Made by a program: the position numbers and the translations under genes. The notes under the pieces are model-generated. The model made no database searches. It was not told where the DNA came from and saw nothing but the letters and a program-made list of their open reading frames with translations. A stretch of 39,327 nucleotides of DNA from a phage, in the NCBI GenBank assembly GCA_033696785.1, contig GCA_033696785.1_4550.1; one strand, 5' to 3'. Of the stretch, positions 199-22,843 are shown one piece after another. Numbering within the stretch: the first letter of the stretch is position 1; each line of letters opens with the position of its first letter.

Positions 199-1218
199 TG
201 CGCCAGCTGCTTCAGGACGCAGACCACCGTGACCCATAGCGTACTTACCAACAATCAGGTCGCCCTGAGCATCGACGTCACGGTCACGTTCCAGCGCCAA
301 GTCACGCAGTTTAACGGTACCCACAGCAGAACGGTGAGAGAACAGGCCCACAACGTTGTCAAGAGCAACTTTAACATCACCACCAGCGGTAGCTGGGAAG
401 GCGTGCTTCTGACCAGTCGCAATAGTGATACCATCAGCACCACGAGTTTCACCAGCACCGCCCTGAGTCAGGTGTGGAACTTCAACAACCACAAAGCCCA
501 TTACGTTACGGATGTTACCAGTTTCAGGATCAATTAGCGCAGCGTAGTTAGCAGCGTTAGGCATCAGAGCCGCCAGAATAGCGGAGTAGTTGTCCGGAGT
601 GGTGTAGAAGTAACGGTCGCCAGCAGGCACGTAGTTTGAAGTCAGCTTAGCACGTGCGATAGTCAGTTGACCGATGATTGCTTCACCCAGCTTAGCGGGA
701 GTGTCTAGGTCAGCTTTCTTACCAACTTCCAGTACGGAGGCAGTGCCTAGACCAGCAATGTTCTCGTTGGATGCAGCCGGAAGGTTGCACAGGATAGCCG
801 TTTCAGCTAATACCGCACCATCGGCAGCGATAGCCAGAGCTTCACCTAGCTGGTTGGAATACTCGCCAGCCACGTCATAGTGGTTCATAGCGTCTTCAAT
901 ATCGAAAATCATCACATCGGCAGTCAGCAGACCATCAATGGTAATCACTTTCTCGGTATGTTTGATGCCTTTGCGCTTATCGGACAGTCGCTCACCTGGA
1001 GCAAGATACACACCAGAGGTGCGACCCATTACCGGGAACTGAGCAGACTTACCGTTCTGAATGGTACGGACAATATGCTTGTCAGCCGTTACAGAGCGGC
1101 GAGTGAATGCGGTCAGGACTTCACCAGCAAAGACCTTCAGGAACAACGCCAGAGCGTCGGAACTAGATTTGCCTTTACCTTGGTCTGTACCAATTTTCTG
1201 ACCCGGAACGTTTGCCAT
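175..1218 (-). CDS. Major capsid protein (T7 gp10A homolog)
   Basis: 347 aa colinear with T7 10A (FLKVF..GEVLTAF, KVITIDGLLTADV, NVMGF.VVEVPHLT, KYAMGHGGLRPEAAG). Promoter at 1321-1343. Confidence 0.96.
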   Translation of the reverse strand: MANVPGQKIGTDQGKGKSSSDALALFLKVFAGEVLTAFTRRSVTADKHIVRTIQNGKSAQFPVMGRTSGVYLAPGERLSDKRKGIKHTEKVITIDGLLTADVMIFDIEDAMNHYDVAGEYSNQLGEALAIAADGAVLAETAILCNLPAASNENIAGLGTASVLEVGKKADLDTPAKLGEAIIGQLTIARAKLTSNYVPAGDRYFYTTPDNYSAILAALMPNAANYAALIDPETGNIRNVMGFVVVEVPHLTQGGAGETRGADGITIATGQKHAFPATAGGDVKVALDNVVGLFSHRSAVGTVKLRDLALERDRDVDAQGDLIVGKYAMGHGGLRPEAAGALVFSPAA

Positions 1219-1320: not shown

Positions 1321-1343
1321 TCTCCCTATAGTGATAGTTTAGT
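1321..1343 (-). promoter_or_regulatory. Phage RNAP promoter (phi10 equivalent)
   Basis: Plus strand tctccctatagtgatagtttagt, i.e. minus strand ACTAAACTATCACTATA-GGGAGA (-17 to +6). Confidence 0.85.
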
Positions 1344-2229: not shown

Positions 2230-2326
2230 TGAGTCGTTCTCCTTTAAGTCGTTAATAGGTAAACACCTACTTGCAGTTTGGGACTAACGGCTACCATATG
2301 GTCGGCTTAGTCGCTCTTACTTTCGG

Positions 2327-2349: not shown

Positions 2350-3913
2350 CTTGAGCCATGTCCTCACCAGCTCCTTGACCTACAGCAGCGCCCATGTTAG
2401 CACCAGCAGCAGACGCACCGTTGACCACAGCTCCTTGAGCGGATTGTTCAGCCATACGTTGCAACTTCTCGTCCTGGGTCAGCAGCAAGCCAGCAGTATC
2501 AATACCTAAGGCATTCAGCAGTCGCAGCTTCAGGGTCGGCAAGTTAATGTCTGGGTCCTGTTGCAGAGGCTGTAGCCCGGTCATCATGTTGACTGCCTGA
2601 GTTAGCTTCTCTAAGTCTTGACCACGACCTAACGCTTCAAGACCAGTGGAGACCGTAGGCTCTACCGCTTCTTTCGGAAGGTCAGGAATCATGCCAGCAG
2701 ACTGAAGCTGGTTCATCAGCACACGGACGATAGGTAACTGAAGCTCTTGTGACTGCACTGAGTACACGCCACCTAAGGTCGCCTCCAGTTCGCCAGCAAC
2801 ATAACGAATCTCTTCAGCAGTGACCCGCTCGGCATTACGCTGAACAGCACTATTAAGAAGGAAGGCCCAGCCTAAACGTTGCTCTATAGCGTCAGCCACA
2901 GACTTAGCAATCGTAAAGTCCTGACCTTTCGTCAGTTGCAGGAAGTTGATGTCCTCAACGCGACCAGCCACGAACTCACCTGTAGCCGCCTTGTTCAGAC
3001 GTCGAGGTTGCGTGATGCCGTTCGGGTTAACGAGGCCAACCACCTTGGAGGCTACCTTAGCCATTTTTGTGATAGCTTCTGTAATTGTCTCTAGCGAGTT
3101 CAGGTCCCCAAGATACTCCTCGCAGTAAGAACGGCCATAGTCTTCGCCATCCAGTCGAACCATTCGTACCGGGATGTATGGACATGCAGTCAGCGGGTAG
3201 GAACCATCGGTCCCTGTAACCTCAATGCCTTCCACTTCCTCGTAGCGAAGATACTCGTCGTCCTGACGGTAGATGTGCGTATACACTTCAAGCTCGGTGT
3301 CAGGCTCATAGTCGTCTGCGTTGAGTTGAGACTTCACGTCTTCCGGTAGAGCACTAAACGCTACCTTGTCGAGAGTTACAATCTGCAAGATGTTACCGAA
3401 CGCATCACGTTGAACAACGTAAGACACTAAGCGATACATCCGCATCGGACTGTAGGTTCCTTGTTCTGGAGGAGGGATGTAGAGAAGGCAGTTACCTGAG
3501 ACGATAAGCTGCTTCAGCGCCTCGAATAATGGAACACGGAAACTGTTAGTCTCCATGTAGGCCATCAACACACGCTCTACCATAGCCAGCCCTTCGTCAA
3601 CACGAGCAGCCGCCTCTGAGTCCTGACTCAAGGTCTTTGCCTCATATTCGGAGACTGTAAGTCTCATCCACGGTGACTGAGGGAATAATGCCAACATCAG
3701 CTTTGCAGCCAAGTTGTTCAAGCAGCGAGCACCCACAGCTTGCCACGGAGTGGTGTACTCAGTAGACGAGTTGTCGGACTCCTTAGGAAACAGTGACGGG
3801 ATAGTGACAGCAGCACAGTTCTGAGCGCGTGTCTCATATGGCTGTCTACCGTTCTTCAGTCGGTCATAGACCGCTTTGGCCCCTTCAGCAGCGAACCCTT
3901 CACGTTCAGCCAT
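2345..3913 (-). CDS. Head-to-tail connector / portal protein (T7 gp8 homolog)
   Basis: 522 aa in the T7 gp8 position between gp7.3 and the scaffold gene. Confidence 0.93.
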   Translation of the reverse strand: MAEREGFAAEGAKAVYDRLKNGRQPYETRAQNCAAVTIPSLFPKESDNSSTEYTTPWQAVGARCLNNLAAKLMLALFPQSPWMRLTVSEYEAKTLSQDSEAAARVDEGLAMVERVLMAYMETNSFRVPLFEALKQLIVSGNCLLYIPPPEQGTYSPMRMYRLVSYVVQRDAFGNILQIVTLDKVAFSALPEDVKSQLNADDYEPDTELEVYTHIYRQDDEYLRYEEVEGIEVTGTDGSYPLTACPYIPVRMVRLDGEDYGRSYCEEYLGDLNSLETITEAITKMAKVASKVVGLVNPNGITQPRRLNKAATGEFVAGRVEDINFLQLTKGQDFTIAKSVADAIEQRLGWAFLLNSAVQRNAERVTAEEIRYVAGELEATLGGVYSVQSQELQLPIVRVLMNQLQSAGMIPDLPKEAVEPTVSTGLEALGRGQDLEKLTQAVNMMTGLQPLQQDPDINLPTLKLRLLNALGIDTAGLLLTQDEKLQRMAEQSAQGAVVNGASAAGANMGAAVGQGAGEDMAQA

Positions 3914-5086: not shown

Positions 5087-5147
5087 CTTGAATCTCCTCT
5101 TTAAGTTAAGACTAAAGTCTATCTTATAGTCATATCTTAGGTCCTAA

Positions 5148-5170
5148 AGTCCCTATAGTGATAGTTTAGT
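5148..5170 (-). promoter_or_regulatory. Phage RNAP promoter (phi6.5 equivalent)
   Basis: Plus strand ccctatagtgatagtttagtg. Confidence 0.85.
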
Positions 5171-5296: not shown

Positions 5297-6217
5297 TTAC
5301 ATGGATGGTGTCCACAGGATGACCTCCTTGGACTTAGGGTCATAGTCAGAGGCTCGACAAATACGAGCGACCTGAGCTTGTACCAGAAGTTCCTCCTCGG
5401 TCATCCCCGCTTTAGCAGCCAGAGTCACCATGCAGTCCCACAGCGTCATGTCGTCGCGCTTTGGATACTTCTTCCACTCAGTCTTAATCTGGCCTTTGTT
5501 CTTGCCAGTCTTAAGCTCACGTCTCTCCTGCACGAAGTAGTACGGCTCGTCAAGGAACGCGCGAGTGGTGTCCTCACCCATCCCCGGAATCCCGCCATAG
5601 CCATCTGTAGTGTCACCCTTGATGGTCTGCTCCATGTGCCAGTAGTCTGCCTCAGCAGTCGTATGACTCAGGATTTCACCAGTGGTTAACCAGAAGAACT
5701 CACAGTTCGGTATGGTCTTGAAGTCCTTATCGCAGGACACCAGCACCGCATGGTCACAGCCGACAATCTGAGGTCTGGTCCCGATGATACCCATACAATC
5801 ATCGCCTTCAAGCGTAGGACGCAGGAAGCTGTTGAACCGTGGGTCAGCCATCACTTCGGCTACGAACTTCTTGTAACCTACAGGCTTGCGCGAACCTTTA
5901 CGGTTGGCCTTATAGGTAGGCAGGACGTCCTTACGCCAGTTGTTATCGTCAGTAAAGCACATCACAATCTTAGCGTCTTTCCACGCCTTGCGCTTCTTAA
6001 CGATTTCATCGATGGTGTTATTAAGGATACGACGAGCCTTCTCGTGGTCGCAGATAAGGGTCCAGATGTCATCACCCCAGTCTGTCTCGTCCTCGGCAGC
6101 AGCCATAGAAGAGAACACTAAGTAGTCACCGTCCAGCACCAGAGCTATTTTCTTTTCGCTCACAGGCAGCCTCCGTGTTGGTTCAGGAACTTGGTGCCAG
6201 CAGCGGTAATCTCCCAC
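5297..6217 (-). CDS. 5'-3' exonuclease (T7 gp6 homolog)
   Basis: 306 aa with LVLDGDYLVFSSMAAAE and PVGYKKF motifs. The annotated start overlaps the upstream gene by 58 nt, so the true start may be a downstream non-ATG codon. Confidence 0.9.
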   Translation of the reverse strand: MGDYRCWHQVPEPTRRLPVSEKKIALVLDGDYLVFSSMAAAEDETDWGDDIWTLICDHEKARRILNNTIDEIVKKRKAWKDAKIVMCFTDDNNWRKDVLPTYKANRKGSRKPVGYKKFVAEVMADPRFNSFLRPTLEGDDCMGIIGTRPQIVGCDHAVLVSCDKDFKTIPNCEFFWLTTGEILSHTTAEADYWHMEQTIKGDTTDGYGGIPGMGEDTTRAFLDEPYYFVQERRELKTGKNKGQIKTEWKKYPKRDDMTLWDCMVTLAAKAGMTEEELLVQAQVARICRASDYDPKSKEVILWTPSM

Positions 6218-9216: not shown

Positions 9217-9240
9217 AATGTCTCCTATAGTCTAATCATA

Positions 9241-9270
9241 AAGGCCACTCGAAGTGAATGACCTTGAGTC
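9241..9270 (-). promoter_or_regulatory. Candidate RNase III processing hairpin
   Basis: Motif AAGGCCAC-N12-ATGACCTTGAGTC (plus strand); minus-strand RNA pairs AAGGUCA with UGGCCUU. Same element at about 17020 and 25211. Confidence 0.4.
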
Positions 9271-9292
9271 TATCCTACAGTGATAGCTTAGT
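9270..9292 (-). promoter_or_regulatory. Phage RNAP promoter, CTGTAGG variant
   Basis: Plus strand cctacagtgatagcttag, i.e. minus strand AGCTATCACTGTAGG. Confidence 0.65.
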
Positions 9293-11198: not shown

Positions 11199-11249
11199 TC
11201 ACTCCTTAATCACAAATGCGAACAGAGGGACAGGACTCACGGTCCCATC

Positions 11250-11267
11250 CCAAGGTGATAGTTTAGG
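11250..11267 (-). promoter_or_regulatory. Degenerate phage promoter-like element
   Basis: Plus strand ccaaggtgatagtttagg keeps -17 to -6 of the consensus but replaces the -5 to -1 TATAG block. Confidence 0.35.
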
Positions 11268-11501: not shown

Positions 11502-11969
11502 TTAACCGTGGTCGGAAGTGACCAGTTCATTGGTAGACAGCCAGCGTTGCAAGTCGAAACTTGGACACGCCTTTGGTGCTACGTCATGGTGTGCTTTTAT
11601 TTCTGCCTGAGGATACAGGACCTTCAGGTCAGCCAGCTTGTTGCGCAGGGAGTTCATCTGGGCTGGAGTGAAGCTAGCTTCAAACTTGCCCTTAGCGTCG
11701 ATTCCACCTACAAGGCAGACGCCTACGGACCGGGAGTTCCAATCCTTAACGTGTGACCCTACGACATTGACCGGGCGACCCTCTTCCACAGTACCATCGC
11801 GCTTGATGATAAAGTGGTAGCCTACGTCCAGCCAGCCTTGCTGCTTGTGCCACATACGGATGGTCTCTACCCCGATGTCCATCTCTGGCTTGGTAGCCGA
11901 ACAGTGAACGAAGATAGCGTCAGTCCGGGACCGTGGGTTGAACTGTACCTTACTTACCATTATTTCCAC
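11502..11969 (-). CDS. N-acetylmuramoyl-L-alanine amidase / lysozyme (T7 gp3.5 homolog)
   Basis: 155 aa with IFVHCSATKP, QGWLDVGYHFIIKRDGTVEEGR and HHDVAPKACPSFD, near-identical to T7 lysozyme. Confidence 0.95.
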   Translation of the reverse strand: MEIMVSKVQFNPRSRTDAIFVHCSATKPEMDIGVETIRMWHKQQGWLDVGYHFIIKRDGTVEEGRPVNVVGSHVKDWNSRSVGVCLVGGIDAKGKFEASFTPAQMNSLRNKLADLKVLYPQAEIKAHHDVAPKACPSFDLQRWLSTNELVTSDHG

Positions 11970-12778: not shown

Positions 12779-13224
12779 TTAACTCCTTTCTTCTTTGGGA
12801 TGAGTATACCTGAAGGCAGACGTACAGTCGCCTCTCGAAGCCACTCAACCGGGATAAACTTATCGGCATACTTATAGCCGTTCTTTTCGCACCATGCGCC
12901 ATACGTGGTCGGAGACCCTTTGTATAGCTTGGAGCGGGAACTTGAGAACACGAACCGTATGTCTAACTCTGGGTGCTGTTCTCGTACCAGAAGGTGCTTC
13001 TTACGGTCATCACTATCGAAGATACCTTTGGTCTCAACGATGATACCGTTAGGAAGGATAAAGTCGGGCGTGTAAAAATGATCGCTAGCAGGTACTACAT
13101 ACATAATTTTATATGCCTCATACTCAGCCCGTACCCCGTTCTTCTCCAGCCACTCTTGGTTCTTTGCTTCAAGCCCAGAGCGATACGCTCCCACTTTATG
13201 TCCTCGACTAATTGTTCTTGTCAC
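12775..13224 (-). CDS. Endonuclease I, Holliday-junction resolvase (T7 gp3 homolog)
   Basis: 149 aa with YTPDFILPNGIIVETKG and DRKKHLLVREQHPELDIRFVFSS. Confidence 0.95.
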   Translation of the reverse strand: MTRTISRGHKVGAYRSGLEAKNQEWLEKNGVRAEYEAYKIMYVVPASDHFYTPDFILPNGIIVETKGIFDSDDRKKHLLVREQHPELDIRFVFSSSRSKLYKGSPTTYGAWCEKNGYKYADKFIPVEWLREATVRLPSGILIPKKKGVK

Positions 13225-13657
13225 GCTTACGCCTCCAGTTAATAGCCTGTGGAGTAACTCCGAACATCTTAGCTAGCTCACTATTGGGCCGCGAGGACTT
13301 CAGGATGAACTCTACGTCTTCCTCGGTCAGCTTAGTCTTATTGTTAGCTTCTCCTATGAACACTGGAGGTTTCGACTTTCGCCCCCTCTCCATGCAGTCC
13401 CTCATGTTGTCCTTCTGCGTACCTAGTTCAAGGTGCTCAGGGTTACAGCAGCAGGGGTTGTCGCATTTATGTCTAACCAACATTCCATCAGGAATAGGAC
13501 CTATGAACTCCATGTATGACACACGATGTGCATAGTCCTGTTTCTGTCTTCCTATTGATATTCGACCGTATCCAGTAGGGAACCGGGAGCGTTGCCACTC
13601 CCAGCACCCGGAGGGAGAAACCTCAGAGTAATCCTCCAGTTTCTCTTTTAGATTCAT
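13208..13657 (-). CDS. HNH homing endonuclease (paralog 2)
   Basis: 149 aa with GCWEW..GYG and LVRHKCDNPCCCNPEHLELGT, plus C-terminal KLTEEDV helix. Confidence 0.88.
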   Translation of the reverse strand: MNLKEKLEDYSEVSPSGCWEWQRSRFPTGYGRISIGRQKQDYAHRVSYMEFIGPIPDGMLVRHKCDNPCCCNPEHLELGTQKDNMRDCMERGRKSKPPVFIGEANNKTKLTEEDVEFILKSSRPNSELAKMFGVTPQAINWRRKRDKNN

Positions 13658-14395: not shown

Positions 14396-14418
14396 CTGTC
14401 CTACAGTGATAGTTTAGG
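14396..14418 (-). promoter_or_regulatory. Phage RNAP promoter (phi2.5 equivalent), CTGTAGG variant
   Basis: Plus strand tgtcctacagtgatagtttagg, overlapping the gp2 stop and upstream of the SSB gene. Confidence 0.75.
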
Positions 14419-14572
14419 TCTCAGGACGAATCCGTCCGACCACAAACCCAGCGTCCTCATACTCTTGTGACTTCAGGGTAGCCTCTTCAAGAGACTTTGC
14501 GTACAACGGAACCTCGAAGGACTGAACGCGACCCTCAAGCTCCACGATGTATTTCTTCTCAACCTCAGTCAT
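14414..14572 (-). CDS. Host RNA polymerase inhibitor (T7 gp2 homolog)
   Basis: 52 aa hand-translated: [52 protein letters not shown], with T7 gp2-like HSFEVP..AGFEV..R.RP. Not in the ORF track. Confidence 0.75.
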
Positions 14573-15442: not shown

Positions 15443-15477
15443 AAGCAAAGAAACCCAGCAGTCCGAAGACCACTGGG
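15443..15477 (-). terminator. Intrinsic terminator after the ligase gene (TE-like early terminator)
   Basis: Minus-strand RNA CCCAGUGGUC-UUCG-GACUGCUGGG (10-bp stem, UUCG tetraloop) followed by UUUCUUUGCUU; same position as T7 TE. Confidence 0.7.
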
Positions 15478-15488
15478 TTGACGTTTAG

Positions 15489-16799: not shown

Positions 16800-17027
16800 T
16801 TATGCTCCTACGAAATACTTCTCTTGGTTTACCAGAGAGTCTTTGCCTTCAGCGTTACGGAAAGCACCCTTGACACCACCGCCACGCTTGGTCTTGTTCA
16901 GCTTGCGGCCCTTCGGAATGTAATCTTCAGTCTGCTGACGTTCACGGATGCGCTCGAAGTTGATAGTGTTCTGATACATGTGGTTAAATCTCCAGTAGTT
17001 TACGTTAGGGTTAATCATGAAGGCCAC
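16800..17027 (-). CDS. gp1.1-like small basic protein
   Basis: Contains KGRKLNKTKR as in T7 gp1.1; the real start is probably an internal Met. Confidence 0.5.
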   Translation of the reverse strand: MAFMINPNVNYWRFNHMYQNTINFERIRERQQTEDYIPKGRKLNKTKRGGGVKGAFRNAEGKDSLVNQEKYFVGA

Positions 17028-17051
17028 GACTTTGAGTCATGACCTTGAGTC
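17020..17051 (-). promoter_or_regulatory. Candidate RNase III processing hairpin (R1.1 equivalent)
   Basis: AAGGCCACGACTTTGAGTCATGACCTTGAGTC just downstream of promoter 17052-17074. Confidence 0.4.
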
Positions 17052-17074
17052 TAATCCTATAGTGATAGTTTAGG
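17052..17074 (-). promoter_or_regulatory. Phage RNAP promoter (phi1.1 equivalent)
   Basis: Plus strand aatcctatagtgatagtttagg. Confidence 0.85.
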
Positions 17075-17378: not shown

Positions 17379-20060
17379 TTAAGCGAATGCAAAGTCTGAA
17401 GACAAGATGTCTTCGATATTCAGTTTACCTTTCTTCGGAAGCTCAGGCAACTTGTCGCGCTGGCTCTCGTGAAGCTGGTATTCAAACTGCTCGTAGAAGT
17501 CAAGCAGCACATCGTTGTCGCGGTAGGTCTCGACCATCGTCTCACGGACACCACGGAACAGATACTCAGCGTCAGCCGGGATGGTCCCGAAGCTATCGTG
17601 AATCACTGCGAACGACATCACGCCATACTTGCGGTGAGTGTGGACTACAGTCTTGCGGAGGTGGCTACCATCTTGTGAGTGGACGAAGTTCGGGCTAATG
17701 CCTGACTCCTGCTTGTGCTTGTCAAGCTCTTTCTTCGTTCCTTTGTTGACTGTAGGCTGAAGGTTGAATGACCCTAAGAACATCAGGTTCAGACGAGTGG
17801 TATCCTTCTTGCGGTATTCCTGCCATACCGGGAAGCCATCAGGTGTTACCCAGTGAACCGGAAGGCATGGCTTAAGGATTTCTCCAGTCTTCTTGTCCTT
17901 CACTTCAGCAGCCAGCAGCTTGGCGGCACCTTGAAGCCACTTCATAGCGTCTACCGCAGCAACTACGGTCACACTCACAGCTTCCCAAATCATCTTAGCC
18001 ATGAAGCGAGACGCTTGGCTTGGCTCGGTGAACATAGCGCCAGACCCTGAGTCAATCGCTGGCATCACGATGTCCTCATAAACTTGGTCTGCGAAGCCAT
18101 ACTCTTTCGACCCATAGGCCAGAGTCATGACTGAACGCTTAGTGACCTTGCGTGACATACCGTAAGTCAGCCACTGCCGGGCCAGCTCTCGTGTCCCCAG
18201 CTTGAGACGTTCGGTAATCTCACCAGTTTTCTTGTCCTCGTGAGTTACCATCTCGTTGTCCGTGCCGTTAACCAGCAGGACTTTAAGCTCTTCCTCAATG
18301 CGGTCTGACACGATTCGGTAGATGTCTTGGACCTTACCGGAAGGCGTCAGGTTTACTGCATGTCCACCGATGTGATCACGAAGCATTGCGCTAAAGTGCT
18401 GAATCCCAGAGCAGGACCCATCGAATGCTATCGGCAGCGAGCAGGAGTAAGACAATCCGTGATGCATTACGCCAGCATACTCGAAGCAGAACGCTAGGAA
18501 GCAGAACGGAGAGTCTAACTTTCCCCACCACTCAATGCTGTCCATCGGTGCCTTAGCGGTAGCCATGATGTTGTCGTGGTTATCTTCCACCCACTTGATT
18601 CGCTCCTCGAAGGTTACTTTATCAATGCCCGCACAGTTTGCACCGTGGACCTTCAGCCATTTGAAACCATCAGCACCAATAGGCTTACCGACTGCCAGAG
18701 TCAGAAGACCCTTTTGCATGTCGTTACCCTGAGGGTTGAACATCGGCACAGCGTAGACGCGACCGCGCCAGTCCATGTTGTACGGAAACCAGATAGCCTT
18801 GAACTGAGAGAACTTGTTCGCTTGGTTAACGATAAAGCTCAGTGACAATCTACGTGACTGCCGGGCCTTCTCTCGGCGGTAGATACCAGCAGCAGCCTTC
18901 TTCCATGCCTTGAGTTCCTCTTCAGTCTCACCCGCATAGTCTTCAGGCTTCAGTGGCTCCATCTGAGGGATGTCGTCAATAGGCGTGTTGTTCAACTTCT
19001 CGACCATGTTCACCACGTCCAGAACCTTCTTGTTCACTTTCCAAGGTGTATTCTGGATGATGTTGACAGCGTCATAGACTTCAGGCATGTACACGTCTTC
19101 GTAACGTGCCACCGCAGACTTAGACCCTAAGCGAATCAATGGTAACGGTCTGCGACCTTTGGCCCAGTACCCACCGCCTACGACACCCGTCCACGGCTTA
19201 GGTGGAACGACGCAAGGCTGATAGACTGGTGCGATACCCGCAAGGCTGAATCCACGTTGTGCCATCTTCTTGACCCAGAAGCCTGACAGGTGGACCATCT
19301 CAACATCAGCCGCTGCATTGCCAGCACCATAACGCTTAAGCTCGACAAGTTGTGTTGACTGGATGACAATCTCAAGCATCTTGATGCCAACATGGACCGC
19401 CTCGGTCGGACTCCAAGTTCCCCACGCATCTTCCAGTTGACCCTGCTCCAGCATGGAGGCCTCAACCGCTTGCATGTAGGCTTTCTTGTAGGATGACCCA
19501 GCTCGCTTGTTCAGGTTCTCAGCTATCGCCTTCTTGAAGTGCTCCTTCTCCTTGTCACGGATGCGACCGAAGCGGATTTCGTCCTCAAGTGTGCGACCTA
19601 TCGCTGAGGCCATCGGTGTAATCGGTATCCCTTCAGGCTTGACCAGCTTGGAGAGGATGACCTTCAGTATAATAACTGCAGCAGACTCGCAAGAGATACG
19701 CAGAGAGCGGTCCTTGACGGCCTTCTCTTCAGTGCTCAACATGGTGAACGCTACGCTAGGACGAGAGGTTGACAGCTTCCCGTCTGGACCTTCATGCCAC
19801 TCCCTGACGGCTTGCGCAATCTTAGGGACCAGAGTCTGCATCAAAGGCTTGGCTACCTGATTGTCTGCCAGTTCCCCGCGCTCAGTCTGTCGCTCAAGGT
19901 TTTTGATGAAACGTCGCTCGCCTTCAGTGTATGCCTCATGCTCAAGCTGAAGCTGTTTGACTGCAAGATCTTGCCCGTAGTGGTCAGCCAGCAGGTTAAA
20001 CGGCTCAATGGCGTTCGACACATCAGAGAAGTCGTGTTTGTCAATAGAGATGACGCTCAT
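17379..20060 (-). CDS. Single-subunit DNA-dependent RNA polymerase (T7 gp1 homolog)
   Basis: 893 aa colinear with T7 RNAP, including catalytic motifs and C-terminal FAFA. Specificity-loop region reads FNLQPTVNKGTKKELDKHKQ (T7: FRLQPTINTNKDSEIDAHKQ). Confidence 0.98.
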   Translation of the reverse strand: MSVISIDKHDFSDVSNAIEPFNLLADHYGQDLAVKQLQLEHEAYTEGERRFIKNLERQTERGELADNQVAKPLMQTLVPKIAQAVREWHEGPDGKLSTSRPSVAFTMLSTEEKAVKDRSLRISCESAAVIILKVILSKLVKPEGIPITPMASAIGRTLEDEIRFGRIRDKEKEHFKKAIAENLNKRAGSSYKKAYMQAVEASMLEQGQLEDAWGTWSPTEAVHVGIKMLEIVIQSTQLVELKRYGAGNAAADVEMVHLSGFWVKKMAQRGFSLAGIAPVYQPCVVPPKPWTGVVGGGYWAKGRRPLPLIRLGSKSAVARYEDVYMPEVYDAVNIIQNTPWKVNKKVLDVVNMVEKLNNTPIDDIPQMEPLKPEDYAGETEEELKAWKKAAAGIYRREKARQSRRLSLSFIVNQANKFSQFKAIWFPYNMDWRGRVYAVPMFNPQGNDMQKGLLTLAVGKPIGADGFKWLKVHGANCAGIDKVTFEERIKWVEDNHDNIMATAKAPMDSIEWWGKLDSPFCFLAFCFEYAGVMHHGLSYSCSLPIAFDGSCSGIQHFSAMLRDHIGGHAVNLTPSGKVQDIYRIVSDRIEEELKVLLVNGTDNEMVTHEDKKTGEITERLKLGTRELARQWLTYGMSRKVTKRSVMTLAYGSKEYGFADQVYEDIVMPAIDSGSGAMFTEPSQASRFMAKMIWEAVSVTVVAAVDAMKWLQGAAKLLAAEVKDKKTGEILKPCLPVHWVTPDGFPVWQEYRKKDTTRLNLMFLGSFNLQPTVNKGTKKELDKHKQESGISPNFVHSQDGSHLRKTVVHTHRKYGVMSFAVIHDSFGTIPADAEYLFRGVRETMVETYRDNDVLLDFYEQFEYQLHESQRDKLPELPKKGKLNIEDILSSDFAFA

Positions 20061-20129
20061 ACTTAAAGTCCTTGTTATTAGTCTTTCACTTAAAGTCTCT
20101 TTGGTCTTTCACTTGGAGTCTTAGACCTT

Positions 20130-20152
20130 GAGTCCTATAGTGATAGTTAAGT
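20130..20152 (-). promoter_or_regulatory. Phage RNAP promoter directly upstream of the RNAP gene
   Basis: Plus strand agtcctatagtgatagttaagt; +1 about 70 nt upstream of the RNAP start codon. Confidence 0.7.
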
Positions 20153-20157
20153 CAGAA

Positions 20158-20484
20158 TCACTTGCATATCAGTGGGTTAGCGTGAAGACGACTGAAGTCA
20201 CCATGAGTCGTGTGCTTGATGGATGACCGTTGGTCTATCGCCTTCCAGCCTGAGACCAGAAGTTTACCATCGTCAGTGATTGGTCGTCCACCATACGCCA
20301 GACACATCAGCTCGGACTTATGGCCCTCAGCCCGGAGTCTTGCTTGCAGTACCCGGTCCCTCTCCTGCTGTTGACGTGCGGAGTGACTTGACGTTCCGTG
20401 ACGATACCCGGTAGCCAGTAGGCTTAACATTTGCATGTCTGCGTCCATAGAGTGTACCAGATTAATCCCGTATGACTTGTTCAT
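20158..20484 (-). CDS. Hypothetical early protein, 108 aa
   Basis: Occupies the T7 gp0.4-0.7 region but has no kinase motifs. Confidence 0.55.
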   Translation of the reverse strand: MNKSYGINLVHSMDADMQMLSLLATGYRHGTSSHSARQQQERDRVLQARLRAEGHKSELMCLAYGGRPITDDGKLLVSGWKAIDQRSSIKHTTHGDFSRLHANPLICK

Positions 20485-20681
20485 TACAGTTTGCTCCCAA
20501 GAGTTGCTATATCCCAGACGTTCGCTAAGTTGCGCATGAATCGTCCGTTAGGTTGACGTACAGTCCAGCGGCCCAGACGTACATAGTTGAATTTGTAGAC
20601 TTTACGTGCCTTGTTGATGTCTCTCACTAGCACGTAGGCGATAAGTCCATAGCCTATGACTATCAATAGTGCAAGACTCAT
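20484..20681 (-). CDS. Small early membrane protein, 65 aa
   Basis: N-terminal hydrophobic helix (LALLIVIGYGLIAYVLV) then a basic tail. Confidence 0.5.
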   Translation of the reverse strand: MSLALLIVIGYGLIAYVLVRDINKARKVYKFNYVRLGRWTVRQPNGRFMRNLANVWDIATLGSKL

Positions 20682-20771
20682 AGTGATTTCCGTTTAATAC
20701 AGTCGTATATCCCATAGCCTATCATCCAGATAACTGGCGCTAAGCATACCCAATGTCCCACACTCATAGTT
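20682..20771 (-). CDS. Small early hydrophobic peptide, about 29 aa
   Basis: Hand-translated MSVGHWVCLAPVIWMIGYGIYDCIKRKSL with AGGAG RBS; stop overlaps the next start. Not in the ORF track. Confidence 0.3.
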
Positions 20772-20957
20772 AACTCCTATTAATGCAAGTGGTAATCTTT
20801 GAGGCCACCTATCAGTCGATGACCTCTAGTTTATCACTCGCGCAATTAGTAACCACCCGTCAGCGTTATGGTCAGGCTCTGGTGATTAGCCACGTAGCAA
20901 GCCCCGCGCCTCATCATCTCGTAGCACCCCCTCGTAAAACGCCTGCTCACTGCTATA

Positions 20958-21130
20958 AGTTATCTGGTACATGTGTACTTGTCCTCATCGTGTAAACTGT
21001 CGTGAATACGTTTGCGGCCCTCATAGACCGCCTTCAGGTGACGCATAGTCGCATCATGTTTTAACTGCCCGGTCTTGACCATAATCCGGGCGTTAGTGAC
21101 GTGGTGCTGGCAGAGACCATAAGTTACCAT
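20958..21130 (-). CDS. Small early protein, about 57 aa
   Basis: Hand-translated [22 protein letters not shown]...; start overlaps the Ocr stop (TGATGG). Not in the ORF track. Confidence 0.3.
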
Positions 21131-21462
21131 CACTCGCAGCCCTCTTCAGCCTCAAACCAGACCACATGAGAGCTATTAGACACATCGTTATACAGTGCCT
21201 CATAAATGCGAGCTTGCAGTATATGCGTCACGTCCTTGGTCTCAGGCATCATCCCAGAGTCCTCAAACTCGTGGTCAATACCATCAGCAGCCATTACCGT
21301 GAAAATCTCGTGGTAGTAGTGCGGAACCATATCGTCTACGACTTCATGCAGCGCATCTTGGTAGTCATCGCCTTCAGCTATTTCGTCGTACTGAATGCGC
21401 TCGTTAAATGCTTCAACAGTTGCAGCCAGCAGCTCATAGTATGCGTTAGCGTTACGTTTCAT
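21130..21462 (-). CDS. ocr: Ocr, DNA-mimic anti-restriction protein (T7 gp0.3 homolog)
   Basis: 110 aa, acidic, with [43 protein letters not shown] matching T7 Ocr. Confidence 0.88.
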
Positions 21463-21663: not shown

Positions 21664-21693
21664 AGCTTACATCTTATAGTTACTGCTTGTCAA
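21664..21693 (-). promoter_or_regulatory. Candidate host sigma70 early promoter (T7 A2/A3-like)
   Basis: Minus strand TTGACA-N18-TAAGCT followed by GTACCACATCGAAAC, resembling the region after T7 A3. Confidence 0.45.
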
Positions 21694-21805: not shown

Positions 21806-21834
21806 ATTAAGCCATAGTCTAGACCTATAGTCAA
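21806..21834 (-). promoter_or_regulatory. Candidate host sigma70 early promoter (T7 A1-like)
   Basis: Minus strand TTGACT-N17-CTTAAT; the downstream AAGTAGACAGCCTGATAAGTC block is near-identical to T7 as recalled. Confidence 0.45.
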
Positions 21835-21944: not shown

Positions 21945-22032
21945 AACTGTAGGTCTCTGACTGTAGGTAGCGGCATTACCGATGGTCGATGACTGTAGGT
22001 AGTTAGACTGTAGGTAGTTAGACTGTAGGTAG
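21945..22032. repeat. Short direct repeats (ACTGTAGGT core) in the terminal, non-coding region
   Basis: gactgtaggtag at about 21959, 21991, 22006, 22021 (last three tandem, 15-bp period), related copies at 21945, 22289, 22304, 22347. Analogous to the T7 ACCTAAAG arrays near the genome ends. Confidence 0.7.
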
Positions 22033-22487
22033 TGACTCAAGGTCTGATACAGATAGAGACTCAGAGAAGACCAATAGTCCCTACCTATCGTCCTGACCTC
22101 CAGCCATAGCCTAGACCTATCGTTTACCTAACGTCTTGACCATCGGTCCAACCTTATGATAGACTGGGGGTAGGGCCTTTGTCTGGACTGAAAGAGGGCC
22201 TATGGGGGGAGACTTGAGGTTCTTGAACTGTGAGATGTGGTCTCAAACTTTTGGTCCAAACTCATCGTCCCTGCCTTAAGGAACCAGCTACTGTAGGTCA
22301 AGGACCGTAGGTCTAAGACCATCGGATGACGACCAGTGAACCAATCAGTAGGTAGACCAGAAGTGAGAGCCTGAATGGTGTTACCTAAAGTCCTTGACTA
22401 CAGTAGCTAAGGTCAGTACGTGGATAAAGACTCACTCTACTGACCTTAGGTCTTCCGCTCATGAATCGTTACCATGATTGCGTTAAT

Positions 22488-22820: not shown

Positions 22821-22843
22821 CTTCCCTATAGTGATAGTTAAGT
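22821..22843 (-). promoter_or_regulatory. Phage RNAP promoter (phiOR equivalent)
   Basis: Plus strand cttccctatagtgatagttaagt, about 95 nt past the terminase stop, firing toward the genome end. Confidence 0.8.

What the first reader, a model, noticed from the sequence alone, without database searches (positions are those of the whole stretch)
20130..20152. Phage promoter immediately upstream of the RNAP gene
A near-consensus promoter (ACTTAACTATCACTATAGG) lies about 70 nt upstream of the RNAP start codon, firing into it. As I recall, T7 has no phage promoter directly upstream of gene 1. Here the polymerase could transcribe its own gene, giving positive feedback once the first polymerase is made.
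Basis: partly seen in the sequence, partly recalled or inferred. Interest (0 to 1): 0.6.

Follow-up and report, generated by a model that had tools for sequence, protein, structure and literature searches.

The report
Phage promoter ahead of its polymerase gene
This T7-like (K1F-type) phage has a genuine phage-polymerase promoter 75 bases ahead of its own RNA polymerase gene, so the enzyme can probably boost its own production, but close relatives already have this annotated and the self-boosting idea is published for other phages.

Summary
The 23-mer ACTTAACTATCACTATAGGACTC lies on the minus strand at 20130..20152. Its predicted +1 G is at 20135, 75 nt before the ATG of the RNA polymerase gene (17379..20060). 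No terminator-like site lies between them. It is one of 11 strong same-strand promoter sites (0.01 expected by chance).

The window is a permuted Kayfunavirus (K1F/EcoDS1-like) genome. All 19 Kayfunavirus/Caroctavirus loci surveyed keep a promoter 75-87 nt before gene 1. The site follows each phage's own polymerase specificity in three classes: K1F type CTATCACT, SFP21B type CCCTCACT and CR8 type GGTACACT. This is strong comparative evidence that it works as a phage promoter.

None of 59 T7-, T3-, Berlin- or K11-like loci has one within 400 nt. The annotated type-phage records of those groups carry phiOL at the left end instead, and phiOL is missing here.

Self-transcription with positive feedback is the most likely consequence, but it is inferred, not shown.

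It is not new. The EcoDS1 record (deposited 2008) annotates this very site as 'phi'. The CR8 and gh-1 records annotate equivalents. Autoregulation was proposed for phiA318, and a mapped start site with proposed feedback exists for LUZ100. Verdict: real, ordinary, already known.

The parts
20130..20152 (-). phi1: phage RNA polymerase promoter, -17..+6 (ACTTAACTATCACTATAGGACTC); predicted +1 G at 20135
   Evidence: 30.9 bits leave-one-out; 11 sites against 0.01 expected. Identical 23-mer annotated 'phi' in EcoDS1.
20061..20135 (-). 75-nt 5' leader of the predicted phi1 transcript. Shine-Dalgarno-like AAGGA at 20073..20069. Starts with GACTCAAGGTC, the 5' half of the RNase III-site consensus seen elsewhere in this genome.
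   Evidence: Folds no better than shuffles (z +0.49). No terminator-like site.
17379..20060 (-). Gene 1, single-subunit RNA polymerase (893 aa); specificity loop LNLMFLGSFNLQPT
20158..20484 (-). Upstream early ORF (108 aa), at the position of EcoDS1 gene 0.38; its stop codon lies 5 nt before the promoter
   Evidence: phrog_7066, 1.1e-43. Its 3' part aligns to the end of EcoDS1 gene 0.38.
21806..21834 (-). Sigma-70-like early promoter (TTGACT-17-CTTAAT), near-identical (1 mismatch in 37 nt) to EcoDS1 'host RNAP promoter' 469..505; supplies the first gene 1 mRNA
21664..21693 (-). Second sigma-70-like early promoter (TTGACA-16-TGTAAG)
22821..22843 (-). phiOR-equivalent promoter, identical to phi1 from -17 to +2. 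No site scoring 12 bits or more lies between it and phi1, so there is no phiOL.
17052..17074 (-). Next phage promoter downstream of gene 1 (at the position of the EcoDS1 'phi' at 6034), followed by a canonical RNase III-type hairpin sequence
15452..15479 (-). Early terminator (TE equivalent) after the ligase-position ORF; end of host-polymerase early transcription
14414..14572 (-). gp2-like inhibitor of host RNA polymerase. Its action would leave phi1 as the only source of new gene 1 mRNA.
   Evidence: PF16857, 1.5e-19.
11502..11969 (-). gp3.5-like amidase/lysozyme, the likely brake on phage polymerase at weaker promoters (by analogy with T7)
   Evidence: PF01510, 2.8e-16; the regulatory role is inferred from T7.

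Best explanation
The site is a working promoter for the phage's own single-subunit RNA polymerase. It is the left-most phage promoter of a Kayfunavirus genome, about 2.1 kb from the left end.

Proposed sequence of events:
1. Host RNA polymerase starts at the sigma-70-like promoters near 21.8 and 21.7 kb. It reads through the early genes and makes the first gene 1 mRNA.
2. The new phage polymerase then recognises phi1 and starts at G 20135. It transcribes gene 1 and runs on into the middle genes.
3. Gene 1 is therefore both an early gene (host polymerase) and a middle gene (phage polymerase).
4. This gives positive autoregulation that can continue after gp2 has silenced the host enzyme.
5. The start sequence GGACTC is not the class III type GGGAGA. 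By analogy with T7, the promoter should be of moderate, class II-like strength and be damped late by the gp3.5 lysozyme.

Shown here: the sequence match, orientation, absence of a predicted terminator, conservation, and co-variation with polymerase specificity. Inferred: initiation at 20135, the size of the feedback, and the lysozyme brake.
For: - **Match to the family.** 11 sites on one strand against 0.01 expected. phi1 scores 30.9 bits and equals phiOR from -17 to +2.
- **Path to gene 1.** Same strand as gene 1, and no terminator-like site was found between 20060 and 20135.
- **Conservation in databases.** The 161-nt region is found in 221 phage records.
- **Conservation in the clade.** 19 of 19 Kayfunavirus/Caroctavirus loci have an own-consensus site with +1 75-87 nt before the ATG.
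- **Conservation relative to flanks.** Between subgroups the promoter is 91% identical, against 75% for the leader and about 85% for the flanking coding DNA.
- **Co-variation with the polymerase.**
  - SFP21B has 12 CCCTCACT-type sites, including the one before gene 1. Its polymerase loop has the T3-like D and R residues.
  - CR8 uses AAGGAAGGTACACTATAGG, including before gene 1, and has a different loop.
- **Existing annotation.** The EcoDS1 record marks the same 23-mer as 'phi'.
- **Precedents.** gh-1 has an annotated phi1 identical to its strong consensus. phiA318: autoregulation proposed. LUZ100: start site mapped and feedback proposed. T7 with gene 1 moved behind a T7 promoter: auto-amplification predicted.
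- **Supporting genes.** gp2-like and lysozyme-like genes are present.
Against: - I found no transcript data for any Kayfunavirus, so initiation at 20135 is untested.
- phi1 has the second-lowest score of the 11 strong sites, and its +3..+6 is non-consensus.
- Subgroup 2 relatives carry A at -2, which may weaken the site.
- In concatemers, or from phiOL in other phages, a phage polymerase can reach gene 1 anyway. The extra contribution of phi1 is therefore unknown.
- Conservation shows the promoter is selected. It does not show that gene 1 amplification is the selected effect rather than transcription of downstream genes.
Confidence: 0.75

Rival explanations
1. The promoter is functional, but its selected role is not to amplify gene 1. 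It stands in for the missing phiOL as the left-most phage promoter. Possible roles are priming replication (T7-type origins are a phage promoter plus AT-rich DNA), transcribing genes downstream of gene 1, or helping the phage polymerase take over DNA entry.
For: phiOL is annotated in T7, 13a, T3, BA14, Yepe2 and K11 but not in EcoDS1 or CR8. No such site is found in the window or in SFP21B. The leader is 63% A+T.
Against: The A+T content of the leader is no higher than that of the other promoter leaders in the window (51-64% A+T). The site lies 2.7 kb behind the end of gene 1, so it gives no head start for DNA entry over the promoter at 17052. Any transcript it makes must pass through gene 1 first, so gene 1 mRNA is produced whatever else the promoter serves.
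Confidence: 0.15
2. It is a host (sigma-70) promoter, as the PE3-1 GenBank record labels the same 23-mer. It would correspond to E. coli promoter C, which sits before gene 1 in T7 and T3.
For: PE3-1 annotation. T7 and T3 have promoter C at this map position.
Against: The consensus scan finds no sigma-70 -35/-10 pair here. By eye, the only -10-like hexamer, TATAGG, lacks the final T, and AGTGAT lies 17 nt upstream of it instead of a -35 box. The sequence is a full match to the phage promoter family and changes with phage polymerase specificity. A host promoter would not do that.
Confidence: 0.02
3. The promoter-like sequence matters mainly as part of an RNA hairpin in host-made read-through transcripts. 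This would be an RNase III processing site equivalent to R1 of T7/T3, or a 3' stabiliser of the upstream mRNA.
For: - The leader starts with GACTCAAGGTC, the 5' half of the RNase III-site consensus.
- The read-through RNA can form a 21-bp interrupted hairpin that uses promoter bases -11..+2.
- Subgroup 2 has a perfect 11-nt inverted repeat, TATCACTAAAG / CTTTAGTGATA.
- Stems flank the promoter in CR8 and EcpYZU01.
Against: Predicted structures differ between lineages, and the z-scores are only -1.2 to -2.5. The 3' half of the RNase III consensus is absent. In subgroup 2 the minimum-energy fold does not use the 11-nt repeat. This idea cannot explain why the -12..-8 bases follow the polymerase.
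Confidence: 0.05
4. A chance or decaying copy of the promoter with no function.
For: Second-lowest score of the 11 strong sites.
Against: Expected chance frequency is 0.01. The site is present in 19 of 19 clade loci and more conserved than its flanks. It has been rewritten to each lineage's own consensus.
Confidence: 0.02

Closest known systems
Promoter 'phi' at 2244..2266 of Escherichia phage EcoDS1 (GenBank EU734172; the same site is present in K1F at 2478..2496)
   Same: Identical 23-mer, same strand, same position about 70 nt before gene 1. The surrounding 161 nt are 98% identical.
   Different: Nothing of substance. The window is another isolate of the same genus (about 95% identical over the gene 1 region).
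phiOL of T7, T3, 13a, BA14, Yepe2 and K11
   Same: The left-most phage promoter, on the same strand as and upstream of gene 1, so it could also let the polymerase reach its own gene.
   Different: phiOL lies about 2.2-2.8 kb before gene 1, ahead of the host promoters. The window has no phiOL and has its left-most promoter directly before gene 1.
phi1 of Pseudomonas phage gh-1 (GenBank AF493143)
   Same: A full-consensus phage promoter about 97 nt before gene 1 in a Studiervirinae phage.
   Different: Different specificity (AAAAACCCTCACTGTGGC). It overlaps an annotated minor terminator and a host promoter. gh-1 has no genes before gene 1.
phi1 of Pseudomonas phage LUZ100 (PMC10134795)
   Same: A phage-specific promoter directly upstream of the polymerase gene. 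Its transcription start was mapped and a positive feedback loop explicitly proposed.
   Different: A distant relative with temperate features, where the loop is thought to be gated by a MarR-like repressor. There is no such gene here.
phi-A8 of Vibrio phage phiA318 (PMC4099482)
   Same: A phage promoter immediately upstream of the kinase and polymerase genes, interpreted as autoregulation.
   Different: An SP6/K1E-like phage, where the promoter precedes two genes.
T7 genomes with gene 1 moved behind a T7 promoter (Endy et al. 2000, as described in PMC3737178); engineered 'T7 autogenes' also appear in the literature (titles)
   Same: Polymerase gene behind its cognate promoter, giving auto-amplification.
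   Different: Artificial constructs. Here the arrangement is natural and conserved across a clade.
E. coli promoter C plus RNase III site R1 before gene 1 in T7/T3
   Same: Same map position. The leader here keeps the 5' half of the RNase III-site motif.
   Different: No sigma-70 promoter and no complete RNase III consensus here.

Membership tests
T7-group phage RNA polymerase promoter (K1F/Kayfunavirus specificity class) | About 23-bp conserved element (-17..+6) matching the genome's own repeated consensus | tested here: met
   30.9 bits leave-one-out; 0 mismatches to phiOR over -17..+2; 11 sites against 0.01 expected.
T7-group phage RNA polymerase promoter (K1F/Kayfunavirus specificity class) | Co-directional with the genes, in an intergenic or gene-end position | tested here: met
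   All 11 sites are on the coding strand. phi1 lies in the 97-nt gap between the upstream ORF and gene 1.
T7-group phage RNA polymerase promoter (K1F/Kayfunavirus specificity class) | Cognate single-subunit polymerase encoded in the same genome | tested here: met
   Pfam RNA_pol 1.9e-106. The specificity loop is identical to that of EcoDS1.
T7-group phage RNA polymerase promoter (K1F/Kayfunavirus specificity class) | Specificity bases (-12..-8) follow the polymerase specificity loop across relatives | tested here: met
   Three classes, each used before gene 1: CTATCACT (asparagines at the T7 748/756-equivalent positions), CCCTCACT (aspartate and arginine there), GGTACACT (CR8 loop).
T7-group phage RNA polymerase promoter (K1F/Kayfunavirus specificity class) | Initiation at +1 G by the phage enzyme (5'-end mapping or in vitro transcription) | not testable with these tools
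   None of the searches run here turned up transcript data for a Kayfunavirus.
Self-transcribed (positive-feedback) phage polymerase gene, as in LUZ100, phiA318 and gh-1 | Cognate promoter upstream of the polymerase gene on the same strand with no terminator between | tested here: met
   +1 lies 75 nt before the ATG; no terminator-like site in the leader.
Self-transcribed (positive-feedback) phage polymerase gene, as in LUZ100, phiA318 and gh-1 | An independent host-polymerase route to the first polymerase molecules | tested here: met
   Sigma-70-like sites at 21806..21834 and 21664..21693. The first is near-identical (1 mismatch in 37 nt) to an EcoDS1 annotated host promoter. No strong same-strand terminator-like hairpin was found before gene 1.
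Self-transcribed (positive-feedback) phage polymerase gene, as in LUZ100, phiA318 and gh-1 | Gene 1 mRNA or protein rises in a phage-polymerase-dependent way | not testable with these tools
   Needs infection time courses with and without the promoter.
Sigma-70 host promoter (T7 promoter C type; PE3-1 annotation) | -35 and -10 hexamers with 16-18 nt spacing | tested here: not met
   Not reported by the scan. The best -10-like hexamer, TATAGG, has no -35 partner (read from the sequence).
T7/T3-type RNase III processing site (R1) | Hairpin with the conserved halves ACTCAAGGTC... and ...GTGGCCTTyATGATT | tested here: not met
   Only the 5' half is present. Fold z-scores are +0.49 (leader only) and -1.4 (with the promoter). 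The structure is not conserved across lineages.
T7-type replication origin (phage promoter plus AT-rich stretch) | Markedly AT-rich DNA just downstream of the promoter | tested here: inconclusive
   G+C of +1..+75 is 0.37, within the range of the other promoter leaders (0.36-0.49).

The most novel reading that the evidence does not exclude
In the Kayfunavirus/Caroctavirus clade the left-most phage promoter has moved from the genome end (phiOL) to directly before gene 1. This would be a clade-defining rewiring that turns the polymerase gene into a natural autogene. In the sample examined here the two placements never occurred together. In addition, host-made and phage-made gene 1 mRNAs would differ at the 5' end, because the promoter bases form part of a hairpin only in the host-made read-through RNA. 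That could give the two mRNA classes different processing or stability.
Probability: 0.25. Interest if true: 0.4.

Novelty: already known. Interest (0 to 1): 0.2.

Why it matters
A polymerase gene behind its own promoter is a simple positive-feedback switch. It affects how fast and how irreversibly a T7-like phage commits to middle and late transcription. It also matters to anyone cloning K1F-type polymerases with their natural upstream DNA, because a construct of that kind should amplify its own expression. For this window the value is mainly correct annotation: one public record (PE3-1) labels the same site a host promoter. The comparative result is a small, tidy addition rather than a discovery. 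The site follows polymerase specificity in three classes and replaces phiOL in this clade.

Tried and rejected
- **Papers not held.** The K1F genome paper (Scholl & Merril 2005) and the Chen & Schneider 2005 promoter survey are not in the library. I could not check whether they discuss this site.
- **Uninformative searches.** Searches on Kayfunavirus transcription starts gave nothing relevant. The IMM-002, Hafnia phage Ca, Citrobacter SH and CR8/CR44b papers mention promoters only in general terms.
- **Sigma-70 reading.** Rejected.
- **Structured leader or RNase III site.**
  - The leader alone folds no better than shuffles.
  - The promoter-containing hairpin is not conserved across lineages.
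  - I did not run a formal covariation count, because there are only about five independent sequence types.
- **AT-rich origin idea.** The leader composition is not distinctive.
- **Class II pause signal.** ATCTGTT occurs once inside gene 1 (17557..17563, minus strand). The motif is at chance frequency (5 found, 5.5 expected). It lies in coding sequence, has no U-run after it, and has no exact match inside gene 1 of the subgroup 2 loci, CR8 or SFP21B.
- **Method fix.** The first de novo promoter search was misled by tandem ACCTACAGTC arrays near the genome end. I replaced it with a core-anchored clustering.
- **SP6.** It has no strong site directly before its polymerase gene; the nearest is a weak match 1271 nt upstream.

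Full report
**What the window is.** All long ORFs lie on the minus strand in T7 gene order. The gene 1 region is about 95% identical to Kayfunavirus genomes such as BDX03P1, Peacock, Vec13 and EcoDS1. Alignment to EcoDS1 puts the left genome end near window position 22235, with a single copy of the terminal repeat. The window is therefore a circularly permuted, reverse-complemented whole genome. ORF 17379..20060(-) is the single-subunit RNA polymerase (Pfam RNA_pol 1.9e-106). The early region holds an ocr-like gene (21130..21462) and small ORFs but no gp0.7 kinase. A gp2-like host polymerase inhibitor and a gp3.5-like amidase are present.

**The observation.**
- The predicted +1 G is at 20135, 75 nt before the ATG at 20060.
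- The element begins 5 nt after the stop codon of the upstream ORF.
- With up to three mismatches the 19-mer occurs 11 times, all on the coding strand, against 0.01 expected.
- A weight matrix separates 11 strong sites from weak ones. The strong sites score 27.5-35.8 bits leave-one-out; the weak ones score 17.8, 16.4 and 11.5 bits on the full matrix. phi1 scores 30.9 bits.
- From -17 to +2 it is identical to the phiOR-equivalent site at 22825..22843.
- The T at -14 is shared by three of the 11 sites, and relatives have either T or A there. It is not a disabling variant.
- The start region GGACTC differs from the GGGAGA of the capsid-gene promoter at 1321..1343 and resembles the other GGA-type sites.

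**Is it functional? Comparative evidence.**
- The 161 nt around the site are found in 221 phage records.
- In 20 IMG/VR Kayfunavirus loci the site is always present.
- Between the two main subgroups the 23-mer is 91% identical, against 75% for the leader (with indels) and about 85% for the flanking coding DNA.

The strongest evidence is co-variation with the polymerase:
- Citrobacter phage CR8 (Caroctavirus, polymerase 79% identical) uses a different consensus, AAGGAAGGTACACTATAGG. It has a perfect copy 87 nt before its gene 1, annotated 'predicted promoter'.
- Shigella phage SFP21B (polymerase 88% identical) uses AAACCCTCACTATAGG at 12 same-strand sites. One lies before gene 1, and its leader is almost the same as in the window.
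- The polymerase specificity loops differ accordingly. The window has LNLMFLGSFNLQPT, SFP21B has LDLMFLGTFRLQPT (the T3-like D and R), and CR8 has IKLMFMG-VQYRPT.

A site that is rewritten each time the polymerase changes its taste is under selection as a promoter for that polymerase.

**Distribution.**
- In a survey of 80 IMG/VR loci, a promoter family could be derived for 78.
- All 19 Kayfunavirus/Caroctavirus loci have an own-consensus site with +1 75-87 nt before the ATG.
- None of 59 T7-, T3-, Berlin- or K11-like loci has one within 400 nt, and only one has one within 1 kb.
- The annotated records of T7, 13a, T3, BA14, Yepe2 and K11 all show phiOL ahead of the host promoters and nothing phage-specific directly before gene 1. 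T7 and T3 have E. coli promoter C there, and T3 also the RNase III site R1.
- EcoDS1 and CR8 have no annotated phiOL. The window and SFP21B have no such site.

**How it most likely works.**
- Two sigma-70-like promoters lie at 21806..21834 and 21664..21693. The first is near-identical (1 mismatch in 37 nt) to an EcoDS1 annotated host promoter. They give the host enzyme a route through the early genes into gene 1. The only strong same-strand terminator-like hairpin is the TE equivalent at 15452..15479.
- Once polymerase is made, phi1 is already inside the cell, 2.1 kb from the left end, and can fire into gene 1. No terminator-like site lies in the 75-nt leader.
- Gene 1 thus becomes a middle gene as well as an early gene. 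Synthesis of its mRNA can continue after gp2 blocks the host enzyme.
- The non-consensus start sequence, together with T7 knowledge of class II promoters and lysozyme inhibition, suggests moderate strength and late damping by gp3.5. This last part is inference.

**Alternatives.**
- A host-promoter reading, as in the PE3-1 record, fails. There is no -35/-10 pair, and the site follows the phage polymerase.
- A replication-origin or phiOL-substitute role cannot be excluded, but the leader is not unusually AT-rich. Any transcript from the site must still cross gene 1.
- An RNA-structure role was explored.
  - The leader begins with the 5' half of the RNase III-site motif that follows the promoters at 17052 and 9270.
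  - Read-through RNA can form a 21-bp interrupted hairpin that includes promoter bases.
  - Subgroup 2 carries a perfect 11-nt inverted repeat between promoter and leader.
  - Against this, the structures differ among lineages, the z-scores are weak (-1.2 to -2.5), and the 3' half of the motif is missing.
  - I leave this as an unexplained side observation.

**Comparison with what is known.**
- The same 23-mer is annotated 'phi' in the EcoDS1 GenBank record and is present in K1F.
- The gh-1 record annotates a full-consensus phi1 about 97 nt before gene 1. The phiIBB-PF7A paper lists a phi1.
- The phiA318 paper interprets a promoter before its kinase and polymerase genes as autoregulation.
- The LUZ100 study mapped a start site at a phage promoter directly before the polymerase gene and proposed a positive feedback loop.
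- Auto-amplification was also predicted for T7 genomes with gene 1 placed just after a T7 promoter.

The feature and its interpretation are therefore already on record.

**Verdict.** Novelty: already known. The modest additions here are two. The site follows polymerase specificity in three classes. In this sample the gene-1-proximal and phiOL placements never occur together.

Noticed in passing
L118 (Shigella phage SFP21B, whole genome); L114, L116, L117: Phages filed under Kayfunavirus use at least two promoter specificities: AAACTATCACTATAGG (K1F type) and AAACCCTCACTATAGG (SFP21B, 04_vB_Eclo_IJM, EcpYZU01). The polymerase loop changes N to D and N to R at the positions matching T7 residues 748 and 756, as in T3. 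This looks like a natural specificity switch within one genus.
   Followed up: partly
L025-L030, L112, L113, L115 (subgroup 2), about -10..+1 and +50..+60 relative to the promoter start: A perfect 11-nt inverted repeat links the promoter (TATCACTAAAG, with A at -2) to the leader (CTTTAGTGATA). The window's subgroup has only an imperfect version. In CR8 (AGGGCTTA/TTAAGCCCT) and EcpYZU01 (GGGTTCTG/TAGGACCC) stems flank the promoter instead. The meaning is unknown.
   Followed up: partly
window 17010..17051 (-) and 9230..9270 (-): Canonical T3/T7-type RNase III site sequences (GACTCAAGGTCA...GTGGCCTTyATGATTA) lie immediately downstream of the promoters at 17052..17074 and 9270..9292.
   Followed up: partly
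window 11245..11267 (-) and 5119..5141 (-): Two weak promoter-like sites (17.8 and 16.4 bits). The first lies before the primase/helicase-position ORF and corresponds to a site annotated 'phi' in EcoDS1. The second sits just downstream of the strong site at 5148..5170.
   Followed up: no
window 13208..13657 (-): An HNH endonuclease ORF (PF13392, 1.1e-16) sits between the ORF at the position of EcoDS1 gene 2.5 and the endonuclease I gene. EcoDS1 has gene 3 directly after gene 2.5, so this looks like a homing-endonuclease insertion.
   Followed up: no
window 21950..22235 (-): The left genome end and a single terminal-repeat copy map here. Tandem ACCTACAGTC-type repeats follow (about 21950..22030), and a concatemer-junction-like TATCTGTA lies near 22050. 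The contig is a circular permutation of a linear genome.
   Followed up: partly
L004 (Escherichia phage PE3-1, KJ748011) 2874..2896: The public record labels this same phage-type promoter as a 'host RNAP promoter', which is very likely a mis-annotation.
   Followed up: yes
window 17557..17563 (-): ATCTGTT, the core of the T7 class II pause/termination signal, occurs inside gene 1 about 180 nt before its stop. The motif is at chance frequency, has no U-run after it, and has no exact match inside gene 1 of the subgroup 2 loci, CR8 or SFP21B.
   Followed up: yes
window 20485..21130 (-): There is no gp0.7 protein kinase gene. Some relatives with the same promoter arrangement (Dev2, P7124, SFP21B, CR8) do have a kinase or gene 0.7-like ORF, so the promoter before gene 1 is not tied to loss of the kinase.
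   Followed up: partly
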